Part shown: piece by piece, positions 1 to 3,052 of the stretch
How positions within the stretch are numbered: the stretch's first letter is position 1
How the letters are laid out: every line of letters begins with the position of its first letter
Assembly: GCA_030295235.1 (NCBI GenBank)
Contig: AP026126.1
Location: forward strand, 124,001 to 188,000
Length of the DNA: 64,000 nucleotides
Origin: Fistulifera solaris
Lineage: Eukaryota
Direction: 5' to 3'
Program-made: the position numbers and the translations under genes
The notes under the pieces: generated by a model
Told to the model about the DNA's origin: nothing
The model's database searches: none
Seen by the model: only the letters and a program-made list of their open reading frames with translations

Positions 1-2141
1 GATGTCTTCATCAGTCATGAACTCTTTTAACTCATGTGATGCCTCATTGTCTAAGCGTTGTAGGGCGAGGTCGGAGGCCACCATTTACAAGTCGATTATG
101 GAGCTTTTTGTATGCTGTCAGGAGACTGGCACTTGTCTTAGTGGGATATGGTTGTGCCCAGATAGAATTACTGTCGTAATCATAAAGCACCATGAGATAA
201 TTATTGCCGGTTGTAGAAGGCGTGATGAATTTTCCAGTTTGGTCGGTATAGATCTGACCGGTAGGTTCGATGGCGTTGACATAGCAGTAATGTGTACGAG
301 CCGTAAGCTGTGGTGGTTGGTGATCCTCGGCTGCATCATTGTCGGGAAACAAGATTGCATCCGATGCAGGATGGGGTTGCAGTTTGGTAGACTTCAGGTT
401 TTTACGAATTTGATCCATGTGCCCCTTGTGCATGGCTAAACTGCGTGGTGGGTATTTGCGGAGGCTGCTTAGTGTTAGGCCAGGAAAATTAGTGAGGAAG
501 CCACGTGCAGCCTCCAACGTTGATAATGCTGGCAAAAATAAGGAAGCATGTGCAAAAGCGACCAGTTCGGCGGTGGCAGAAGCACCAATCGCACGGGCTG
601 CGATGGGATGTGGCAGAGGGCATGGTGGCGGCCATGGTGCAGGTGTTACTGGGACATGGGGTACCGGGACATGCCAAAGGCCGGTACAGTGATCGCGGTG
701 ACCAGTGAGCACAATATTGGAGAGACTGTCGTGAACTGTCATGGTTGTGGCGTCAAACCGCACAGTATAGCCCGCATCGCAAAGTTGGCCAATGGAAAGA
801 AGTGAGCACTGGTGGAGTTCAGGGAAAATGTGAACATGCCATGCAGCAGGGGCCAAGCCAGGGAAGTCTAACACGCCTTCATGTGTGGAGGTAAGGGTCG
901 AACCATCTGGAATGGTGATGTGCAGAGGTTTGGTAGTAGGGACAATATTCAGGACGGGAAAATTGCTGCTGACGTAATTGCCGGTACTACCTGAGTCAGC
1001 AATGAGATGAGAGGGGGACCTGGGCTAACATTAGAATCAGATGGCGGAGAAGTTAACAGGTTGTTAAACTTAACATCGTGCTGTAGAATGAGCTCAGGCT
1101 CCCCTCGTCCCTATTCTGCAAGATTAGGTGCAGCTGCTGAATTGGCCGAAGAGGTGTGGCGACGTCCATTACTGTTTGTCTTGCCAGATTTTCCAAATCT
1201 CAACTTTTGCTGCCTCCTTTGCGGTTGGTGGCTGTAGCATCAATGTGGTGGCCTAGCTCGGGGTTCTTGCATGTGTTGCCATTGTGAGTCACAGTAGAGG
1301 AGGGTGGGTTGTTTGCTGCTGCTGCAATAGGATGGGCAAAAGTGGTGACCATGTGTGCGCCATGGTAGCCTGCCGCCCTGAGCAGTGAGGTTATGTTTGC
1401 GATCATTATCAGCTCGTGTGAAATGATCCTTAAAATTAGCCCACGTCTGCTCGGCTGCCGGTTTATCGCGCCAGGTCTGCAAATAGTAGTGGAAGACTCC
1501 AGATTTTGCCAACGCTTCCTGAGTTTTGAGGATGACCGTGGCATCCTGAATGGTAGGATCAATGGCCTTAATTTTTGCAATGTGGGCCCATAAATGCTCG
1601 ATAGGATTAGATGGATCCCATTGATTGGCAAGCTGATCACGATTGTTTTCGTAATCCAATGCCGTCATTTGCCCGTAATTGGTCTCCAAATATGCCAGGA
1701 AATCGCGAATGCTCACAAGATTGTATTCATGGAGGGGGTCAAGAAGTTCCTCGCGGTAGATGGGTGCCACTGCAGCCAAAATTTGTCTTGTATAAGATGG
1801 CAATGAGGGCCGTGTATGTTTCAAATTCGGCCACGGCGGCATCATAGGCTTGTCGCGTGGCTGTAATAACATACTGTGTGTCGCCCTGTTGGGGCACAGG
1901 TGGCGGTCCTGGGCTAGGCGGTGGAATGAAGTGCTGATTGGTTAATGCAAAATATTCGTTGTCGGGCATGACAGCTCAAATGACCATGTGCCCCGCCACC
2001 AGCGAACAGAACGGATTGCTTCCCGCATTTGCATACACTTGTCGTTTCAGGATGCTTAAAAGTATAAGGTGTGGGGTGTCCTGGGATGACATCAAGAGCC
2101 CTGTTGGGAAACTGGGGGAAATTGGTGTCGATGGTGGACAT
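1..2141 (-). CDS. gag-pol of first copia element (gag, in-frame UAG, protease, integrase); broken by single-base indels
   Basis: ORF pieces 1914-2225, 1976-2164, 1739-1969, 1240-1872, 1200-1640 and 44-874 join into gag-PR-IN after one-base corrections. Confidence 0.85.
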
Positions 2142-2208
2142 TGCACTGGTGGCAAGATCGACAATACAATTTGCGAATTGGTTGCTGGTGACTCGTGAGA
2201 GTGGCGAC

Positions 2209-2416
2209 TGTTGTCGTTGATGCAATGCGAGATAGATAAATGAAAGAAAAAGATAATTGAGATCTATTGATGGGAACCTCTATATGATGATAAGGTGATC
2301 TCAATTATTATGAGTTACGAGGTTGCTATCAAATGGTCGATCCGTATACTGGTGGATGCCGTGATCCGAGAGGGTTACGGGTTGGTCGGTTGACGTGCAG
2401 AAACTGGCTAACAACA
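2209..2416 (-). repeat. 5' LTR of the first copia element (208 bp)
   Basis: Bounded by inverted termini TGTTGT (2209) and ACAACA (2416), just upstream of the gag ATG at 2141. The partner LTR is outside the window. Confidence 0.75.
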
Positions 2417-3052
2417 CTATTTGACTTTTTGGTATCCTGAAGAAAATGTTCGGTATTTTGCAGAAGAAACACACCAAAAGGAATTTTATGGAGTCTCACC
2501 GTCTCCGGGTGATTCTCCTCGAAGTCGTGTTCGAGTACGACTAAACGTCTGACGTTGGATGTACCATGTAATATGGCTTGCCATGCGAATAGGCTGAGCC
2601 AACATCATTGTTCGACACGATGTTTTTGCAGAGTAGACTTAAGCTCTATGTAAACTTTAACTTTTCGCTAAGCTACTATGGATACACACGGAACACATAA
2701 CTGAGCCGGTTTTCTGGGCGGTTCTATTGTTGTCGTCTACGTTTCTGTACCCCCTCTTTTTCGGCATAGTTGGCTGATTGTTCGTGGGCACAGAAAGAAA
2801 TGAGCCTCCTCCCAAAGAATACACCCATTGGCCAACTCATTTCTCCGAACCAATGGCCACAAAATATGATCGTAATGGCTCCATATTTGTTGATCTGCCC
2901 AACGTCGCTTTTCGATAACCACAAGTGTAGGATGATATTTTGGTGCTCGGGGCCAAATATAATGTGAACTAACAGTTTCCTACTCTGTCGCAAACACATT
3001 ACATTGTTTACCGCCTTGCTTTTTGTTGCAAAAAAGATCATTGGTCTCAGTT

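What the first reader, a model, noticed from the sequence alone, without database searches (positions are those of the whole stretch)
1011..1113. Probable UAG read-through with a long stimulatory stem-loop at the gag-pol junction of a copia element
Seen: after a one-base A-run correction near 1205, gag ends ...APNLAE-UAG (plus-strand 1111-1113), followed by purine-rich GGA CGA GGG GAG. The same frame stays open for about 33 codons and reaches the protease (IADSGSTG) if one C is added to the C5 run at ~1015. The protease frame itself has stops between the UAG and the protease, so a frameshift upstream of the UAG cannot deliver pol. Four nt after the UAG, GAGGGGAGCCUGAGCU (1091-1106) pairs with AGCCCAGGUCCCCCUC (1011-1026) at 14 of 16 positions, extendable by CAUU/AAUG. 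Established: UAG-G plus a purine spacer plus a 3' structure drives gag-pol read-through in gammaretroviruses, whereas most copia elements use one ORF, splicing or a frameshift. Inference: this diatom copia family sets its Gag:Pol ratio by structure-stimulated stop suppression.
Basis: partly seen in the sequence, partly recalled or inferred. Interest (0 to 1): 0.75.

Follow-up and report, generated by a model that had tools for sequence, protein, structure and literature searches.

The report
Diatom retrotransposon stop-codon read-through signal
A jumping gene of a diatom, like dozens of its relatives, has its capsid and enzyme genes in one reading frame split by a single stop codon that is followed at a fixed distance by a conserved RNA hairpin, so ribosomes most likely make the enzymes by occasionally reading through the stop, a trick known from some viruses but not described for this group in the papers searched.

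Summary
Observation confirmed; interpretation supported, with corrections. The UAG (1113-1111) ends a 342-codon gag of a young, full-length diatom Ty1/copia element. Of 79 informative relatives, 76 keep one in-frame stop 29-68 codons before the protease; across 39 families it is UGA (23), UAG (15) or UAA (1), switching about 11 times on a tree. The conserved signal is stop, six bases, GGG(G/A), a small internal loop, then a helix whose partner lies 55-135 bases downstream; variable columns co-vary (67/100 paired versus 44 permuted). Corrections: the conserved stem starts six, not four, bases after the stop; it is a hairpin, not a pseudoknot; the signal is not UAG-specific, though UAG nearly always carries G next. 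Read-through itself is inferred, not shown; splicing is not excluded for this family. Known mechanism (MuLV, alphaviruses, Tca2), new signal variant. The scan noted in-frame UGA junctions in diatom copia elements before on other DNA.

The parts
2265..2416 (-). 5' LTR, 152 bp, ends TG...TA, 5-bp target-site duplication at 2417-2421; the 3' LTR lies outside the window (G000:C6 about 120,994-121,145)
   Evidence: 155 of 156 identical to the 3' copy; ends and duplication read
2253..2264 (-). primer-site position; 12 nt that are the reverse complement of 2297-2308 inside the LTR (candidate self-priming site; side observation)
1114..2141 (-). gag, ATG at 2141-2139, 342 codons by the short-read contig; broken by seven small indels in this assembly; this copy lacks about 19 codons of the Cys/His knuckle present in the second copy
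1111..1113 (-). UAG ending gag, in frame with pol; next base G
   Evidence: position conserved as a stop in 76 of 79 relatives
1105..1110 (-). 6-nt spacer GGACGA between stop and helix; G and A at its last two places are conserved in 31 and 30 of 39 families
1091..1104 (-). 5' arm: GGGG basal helix, unpaired A, GCCUG upper helix and extension
   Evidence: first 22 nt from the stop identical in the two genomic copies
1027..1090 (-). interior of the hairpin; folds, but length and sequence vary freely between families
1013..1026 (-). 3' arm AGCCCAGGU-CCCCC (one C more in the short-read contig); encodes the Gly-Pro-Pro seen before the protease in many relatives
986..1003 (-). protease active-site motif IADSGS (Asp codon 997-995)
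   Evidence: motif recognised from knowledge of retroelement aspartic proteases, no Pfam hit
1..1110 (-). pol 5' part (spacer peptide, protease, integrase start); continues off the window to RT and RNase H

Best explanation
This is the gag-pol junction of a recently inserted diatom Ty1/copia (CoDi-type) LTR retrotransposon. Shown: gag and pol share one frame, separated by one stop; the stop, the GGG six bases after it and a long-range helix are conserved across the lineage. Inferred: most ribosomes terminate and release Gag; a minority, meeting the helix at the mRNA entry channel while the stop is in the A site, take a near-cognate tRNA and continue through the 36-codon spacer into protease-integrase-RT-RNase H, giving a Gag-Pol fusion at a few percent of Gag. 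The helix base is set by distance from the stop, its loop is dispensable filler, and the stop's identity is free but coupled to the next base (UAG needs G; UGA tolerates C, U, G, A).
For: Unedited copies read gag-stop-protease in one frame; window copy has exactly one stop between ATG and protease in the phases given by the short-read contig. 76 of 79 informative relatives have the in-frame stop, with the gag knuckle in the same frame in 62 of the 70 genomic and metagenomic loci long enough to show it. The stop changes between UAG and UGA about 11 times on the tree (9-10 forced by strong branches) and stays a stop. 36 of 37 UAG loci have G next, against 6 of 40 UGA loci. All 35 Gly codons at the third codon after the stop are GGG, against 26 of 412 Gly codons in pol. 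Variable helix columns pair 67 of 100 times, permuted mean 43.9 (0 of 100,000), slid registers 28-42; covariation 0.244 against 0.134 shuffled and at most 0.120 slid; G-C/A-U swap in the basal helix found by RNAalifold. The other two frames of the spacer are closed in 36 and 38 of 39 families and only 9 of 39 have an in-frame AUG. Precedent: structure-stimulated read-through in MuLV and alphaviruses.
Against: No read-through product, RNA or ribosome data were seen. In the second copy the junction is not unusually stable (rank 22 of 155 windows). Other GGG triplets also pair at long range in 142 of 215 control folds, and the cognate spacer beat all other windows of its own locus in only 20 of 39. 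Two of five measures did not exceed shuffles clearly (316 and 33 of 500); RNAalifold recovered only 4 pairs. Third-position excess in the spacer is weak. A frame-keeping GT-AG intron over the stop is possible in this family. Tca2's similar-looking junction gave no read-through in yeast. One relative has no stop (L101).
Confidence: 0.7

Rival explanations
1. Pol is made by read-through, but the hairpin is not the stimulator (it serves packaging, dimerisation or RNA stability), or read-through needs distant sequences or a host or element factor, as proposed for Tca2.
For: Tca2's 300-nt junction with a predicted pseudoknot gave only background read-through in S. cerevisiae (PMC2194720). Modest folding energies.
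Against: The helix base sits exactly 6 nt after the stop in 35-39 of 39 families while the 3' arm floats by 80 nt, which ties it to a ribosome standing on the stop.
Confidence: 0.13
2. A minor spliced RNA removes the stop and joins gag to pol in frame; the hairpin modulates splicing.
For: In both genomic copies a GT at 1172 and a UAG at 1027-1025 would give a 153-nt frame-keeping intron that spares the protease motif (row L013; same sites in the window). Two public gene models of these elements skip the junction from the same donor.
Against: Such an intron is possible in only 6 of 29 families at no shared position, and donor-like words are no commoner before the stop (6 of 29) than in control windows (8 and 6). 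The gene models' junction deletes the catalytic Asp, and its acceptor exists in 6 of 39 families. Splicing would not explain the coupling of UAG to G together with free UGA.
Confidence: 0.07
3. Pol is translated separately, from an internal promoter, by re-initiation or by internal entry at the hairpin.
For: Tca2's junction holds a weak promoter; a stem-loop-linked internal entry or bypass was suggested for some plant copia elements (Gao et al. 2003, recalled; paper not held).
Against: 30 of 39 families, this one included, have no in-frame AUG between stop and catalytic Asp; separate translation would not keep gag and pol in one frame or the spacer open (shuffled spacers stay open 1,277 of 7,800 times).
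Confidence: 0.05
4. The stop is converted to a Trp codon by A-to-I editing on the structured RNA, or ribosomes hop over it between matching codons.
For: UAG and UGA both become UGG by one A-to-I change (general knowledge; hepatitis delta amber/W site recalled); one database protein shows Trp at the stop position (P0125), which may equally be a gene call under another code or a mutation.
Against: The stop lies outside the conserved helix; I know of no ADAR-type mRNA editing in diatoms (recalled, not searched); codons flanking the stop match in 1 of 39 families.
Confidence: 0.04

Closest known systems
Gammaretroviral (MuLV) gag-pol read-through, 'type III' signal (PMC3159437 introduction and discussion; PMC13517186 passages)
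   Same: gag-UAG-pol in one frame, G after UAG, purine-rich spacer with G at its first and fifth places, G-rich 5' strand of a 3' structure
   Different: 6-nt rather than 8-nt spacer; long hairpin with no support for a pseudoknot; UGA is as common as UAG in the lineage; host is a diatom LTR retrotransposon
Extended 3' stem-loops of alphaviruses and some plant viruses (Firth et al. 2011, PMC3159437); SEPN1 stem-loop 6 nt after UGA as cited there
   Same: basal helix from two arms about 55-135 nt apart, unconserved interior, constrained synonymous sites after the stop
   Different: those use UGA-CUA/CGG; this element uses UAG-G, and the lineage conserves a GGG(G/A)-loop-GCC/GGU core
Tca2 of Candida albicans (Ty1/copia; PMC2194720 abstract, background, discussion)
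   Same: copia element with gag and pol in one frame split by one stop, followed by a purine-rich spacer and a predicted structure
   Different: UGA, 8-nt spacer, predicted pseudoknot; its local signal did not work in yeast; no lineage-wide covariation reported in the sections read
Tj1, Tcry1, Tosmo1-3 of fission yeasts (Ty3/gypsy; PMC10085805 passages)
   Same: in-frame stop between gag and pol, GAA before the stop as here; stop essential for Tj1 transposition
   Different: gypsy superfamily; strictly UGA-CU context; no 3' structure described in the passages read
CoDi elements of Phaeodactylum and Thalassiosira (Maumus et al. 2009, PMC2806351 sections 6, 17, 18)
   Same: [quoted passage not shown]
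   Different: the paper records the interruption without a mechanism or RNA signal; its supplement could not be read, so the CoDi subgroup was not assigned

Membership tests
Ty1/copia LTR retrotransposon | two LTRs and a target-site duplication | tested here: met
   152-bp LTRs, 155 of 156 identical, 5-bp duplication
Ty1/copia LTR retrotransposon | pol order protease-integrase-RT-RNase H with copia-type RT | tested here: met
   motif order in ORF pieces (motifs recognised from knowledge); RVT_2 at E 3e-4, below Pfam's cut-off in this broken copy; the 98%-identical P0121 carries PF07727
CoDi (diatom copia) subgroup | RT phylogeny with reference CoDi1-7 elements | not tested
   no reference sequences at hand; named relatives are all diatoms; supplement of PMC2806351 unreadable
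Type III (gammaretrovirus) read-through signal | UAG followed by G | tested here: met
   this element; 36 of 37 UAG loci
Type III (gammaretrovirus) read-through signal | 8-nt spacer before the structure | tested here: not met
   conserved helix starts after 6 nt
Type III (gammaretrovirus) read-through signal | compact H-type pseudoknot | tested here: not met
   loop-to-tail pairing beyond shuffles in 3 of 38 families, median z 0.23; only this one pseudoknot geometry was tested
Type II (alphavirus-like) signal | UGA-CUA or UGA-CGG | tested here: not met
   UAG-GGA here; C follows UGA in 11 of 23 families
Type II (alphavirus-like) signal | extended 3' stem-loop with conserved base and variable loop | tested here: met
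Any programmed read-through signal | measured read-through that depends on the signal | not testable with these tools
   needs a reporter, ribosome profiling or mass spectrometry
Rfam RNA families | match to a curated model | tested here: not met
   window 800-2600: one chance match elsewhere (E 0.94), none at the junction

The most novel reading that the evidence does not exclude
A large lineage of diatom copia elements shares a so far undescribed class of read-through RNA element: a codon-independent stimulator defined by a 6-nt spacer ending in GA, a GGG(G/A) basal helix and a conserved A-containing internal loop, which has converged on the gammaretroviral rules (UAG-G, G at spacer place 5) each time the stop became UAG, and whose unpaired A could act as a tunable switch for the Gag:Pol ratio.
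Probability: 0.3. Interest if true: 0.7.

Novelty: new variant of a known kind. Interest (0 to 1): 0.5.

Why it matters
If true it gives the first structure-stimulated read-through signal with comparative support in a Ty1/copia lineage and, by the searches made, the first recoding signal of this kind in diatoms. The natural series of about 40 divergent versions (three stop codons, one fixed spacer, swapped stem pairs) is a ready-made test set for an open question: how 3' structures and the base after the stop combine to suppress termination. It also explains why public gene models invent introns at this junction, and offers a compact two-level expression switch for diatom genetics. The mechanism class itself is known.

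Tried and rejected
Frameshifting: unnecessary since gag and pol share a frame; no X XXY YYZ heptamer or Ty1/Ty3 +1 site in window 991-1300. Degenerate nonsense mutation: rejected by conservation. Genome-wide codon reassignment: UAG and UGA both occur at this place in one genome; diatoms use the standard code (knowledge). Pseudoknot and matched-codon hop: not supported. Expression: no RNA holder listed; the one holder covers element and flanking host DNA evenly, so it says nothing on expression or splicing; the two other runs gave next to no cover. Pfam on gag and protease pieces: nothing. PDB sequence search: only unrelated matches. Viral contigs: 13 pattern matches, none a relative. Earlier-findings search by sequence: nothing. 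Gao et al. 2003 is not held; the supplement of PMC2806351, which lists ORFs of the CoDi elements and may bear on whether the stop was recorded, could not be read. Literature searches that found no description of read-through in diatom retrotransposons: (open-licence library only). PMC6875170, PMC5445492 and PMC2774666 (passages) describe no such junction. The careful tree did not finish; the quick tree was used.

Full report
What is in the window. The minus strand of window 1-2416 is the 5' half of an LTR retrotransposon. Its 5' LTR (2416-2265) matches the 3' LTR, fetched from the neighbouring genome stretch, at 155 of 156 letters, and a 5-bp target-site duplication flanks the 5.4-kb element, so the insertion is young. 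ORF pieces give the order protease, integrase, RT, RNase H (motifs recognised from knowledge), with a weak RVT_2 match (E 3e-4, under the cut-off). Named relatives are diatom proteins, the closest a Fistulifera solaris gene model 98% identical over the protease. It is a diatom Ty1/copia element; its CoDi subgroup was not determined.

The observation. The UAG at 1113-1111, the following GGA CGA GGG GAG, the open frame to GPP and the six stops in the assembly's protease frame are as described. The two arms pair at 14 of 16 places; the stretch folds at -31.9 kcal/mol, z -2.42 (z -1.80 with wider flanks). Reading the window's own pieces in the phases this table implies gives 342 codons from the ATG at 2141, one stop at 1113, and then an open frame into IADSGST. 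Independent of any correction, a second full-length copy (80% identical overall, identical LTRs) reads ...APEPSE-UAG-GRGEP...GPPAHLIADSGST in one frame, a second family in the genome does so with UGA-GGA (L015), and a third with UGA-CUC. Between the two close copies the first 22 nt from the stop are identical and 29 of 30 nt from the 3' arm to the catalytic Asp, against 67 of 90 in the end of gag, 54 of 67 in the loop and 176 of 218 in the protease.

Relatives. A metagenome scan found 253 relatives, of which the best 80 were kept, plus 3 in binned genomes; their hosts are not named. Four of the 83 begin inside the spacer or protease and were dropped. Of the 79 left, 76 have one in-frame stop 29-68 codons before the protease Asp; two (L033, L100) have the stop and its motif but a frameshift after it; one (L101) has no stop. 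With three unedited own-genome copies added, the gag knuckle lies in the stop's frame in 62 of 79; 9 contigs end too early and 8 show a variant knuckle or a broken gag. Protein records agree: of 120 listed homologues, the 44 with a recognised protease motif have at most 40 residues before it. Two records run through the position, with Gln (P0020) and Trp (P0125); these may be mutations or gene calls under other codes.

The signal. Dereplicated at 70% protease identity, 39 families remain: 23 UGA, 15 UAG, 1 UAA. On a quick tree of 70 rows (five rows with short in-frame pol left out, including two own-genome copies) the stop changes type 11 times, 9-10 of them forced by well-supported branches: the codon is free, termination is kept. 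All 15 UAG families have G next, against 4 of 23 UGA families (36 of 37 and 6 of 40 loci; not corrected for kinship). Counting the stop's first base as +1, +8 is G in 31, +9 A in 30, +10 G in 35, +11 G in 38 and +12 G in 39 of 39. The third codon after the stop is GGG in all 35 cases where it is Gly, while GGG is 26 of 412 Gly codons in pol, so the constraint is on the RNA. The other two frames of the spacer hold stops in 36 and 38 of 39 families, and 9 of 39 have an in-frame AUG.

The structure. In 38 of 39 families the GGG is predicted to pair far downstream, but so do 142 of 215 control GGG triplets, so this alone is weak. Stronger tests: own arm with own spacer averages -18.0 against -13.5 kcal/mol for swapped pairs (0 of 100,000 permutations). 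In the 20 of 39 families that can be anchored by sequence alone (stop on one side, a GGU-C-rich word on the other), the five variable columns above the anchor pair 67 of 100 times, against 43.9 +/- 4.4 permuted and 28-42 in slid registers. On a plain alignment of those 20 plus the window, trimmed at both anchors, the named 12 pairs give 85% paired cells and covariation 0.244, against 75.5% and 0.134 shuffled and at most 67% and 0.120 slid; two count measures did not clearly exceed shuffles. RNAalifold by itself found only the four basal pairs, one with a G-C/A-U swap in 9 and 8 rows. In 21 disjoint pairs of relatives, 12 of 26 changed pairs in the upper helix stay paired, against 19 of 104 in protease control windows, and paired sites change at 0.18 against 0.32 for unpaired. 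Synonymous permutation gives a median z of -2.3 (24 of 39 under -2) against -1.2 (9 of 38) for controls. Against: in the second copy the junction ranks only 22nd of 155 windows by energy, the cognate spacer is the best partner within its own locus in only 20 of 39, and third-position excess in the spacer is slight (178 of 684 against 144 of 680 and 135 of 686). A pseudoknot by loop-to-tail pairing is not supported (3 of 38). A two-arm pattern hits only three such junctions in the 51.7-Mb genome and its reversed control none; the window's copy, short of one C in the assembly, is not hit. Rfam has no model for it.

How it most likely works. Shown: one frame, one stop, a helix whose base is fixed six bases after the stop while its 3' arm floats between about +65 and +147. 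Inferred: programmed read-through, the helix hindering termination from the mRNA entry channel, as proposed for MuLV and alphaviruses (PMC3159437, introduction and discussion read; PMC13517186, passages). The MuLV spacer conserves G at its first and fifth places; these are +4 and +8 here, a parallel that may be convergence or chance. Splicing is the main mechanical rival for this family: a GT at 1172 and a UAG at 1027-1025 would give a frame-keeping intron, and two public gene models skip the junction from that donor, though to an acceptor that deletes the catalytic Asp. Across the lineage such introns are possible in only 6 of 29 families at no shared place. No RNA data were available to decide it. 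Tca2 is the caution: a similar-looking copia junction gave background read-through in yeast although Pol came from the gag-pol RNA (PMC2194720, abstract, background and discussion read).

Relation to what is known. In-frame gag stops are known in gammaretroviruses, Tca2 and fission-yeast Tj1/Tosmo elements (PMC10085805, passages). Maumus et al. [quoted passage not shown] Searches found no paper describing read-through or this RNA element in diatoms; subscription papers and Gao et al. 2003 (recalled only) are outside the library. The signal works like type II/III structure-stimulated read-through but fails membership in either as defined (6-nt spacer, no pseudoknot, any stop). Earlier notes of this scan report in-frame UGA junctions in diatom copia elements, two in this genome; they are not independent evidence, and this report adds the UAG form, the stop switching and the covariation tests. 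Verdict: real feature, new variant of a known kind, read-through about 0.83 likely in some form and 0.7 with this hairpin as stimulator; interest 0.5.

Noticed in passing
window 2253-2264 with 2297-2308 (minus strand); also L013, L014, L016, L018: No tRNA-type primer site is evident after the 5' LTR; the 12-13 nt there are the exact reverse complement of a stretch 44-53 nt from the LTR's end, with different letters in three families (4 of 5 own-genome copies tested; 7 nt in the fifth). Candidate Tf1-like self-priming; the scan has noted this many times.
   Followed up: partly
window about 1290-1300: This copy lacks about 19 codons of the gag Cys/His knuckle that the second copy has, in frame; the short-read contig and the public gene model show the same loss, yet the LTRs are 99% identical, so it may have been mobilised in trans.
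   Followed up: partly
P0121, P0122: Public gene models of the two copies bridge the stop with a predicted intron that removes the protease's catalytic Asp; probably an annotation artefact.
   Followed up: partly
L101:900-1230: A distant relative (39% protease identity) runs from the gag knuckle into the protease with no stop; its gag is broken further upstream.
   Followed up: no
window 1100 with 1017, and relatives: An unpaired A opposite one or two C's sits between the basal and upper helix in most anchored families; an A.C mismatch could be pH-sensitive (speculation).
   Followed up: no
window 1-2200: The assembly carries about ten small indels in 2.2 kb against the short-read contig, so frameshifts seen elsewhere in this genome should be treated as likely sequencing errors.
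   Followed up: yes
L099-L101: Three bacterial MAG contigs carry these diatom-type retrotransposons, probably binning contamination.
   Followed up: no
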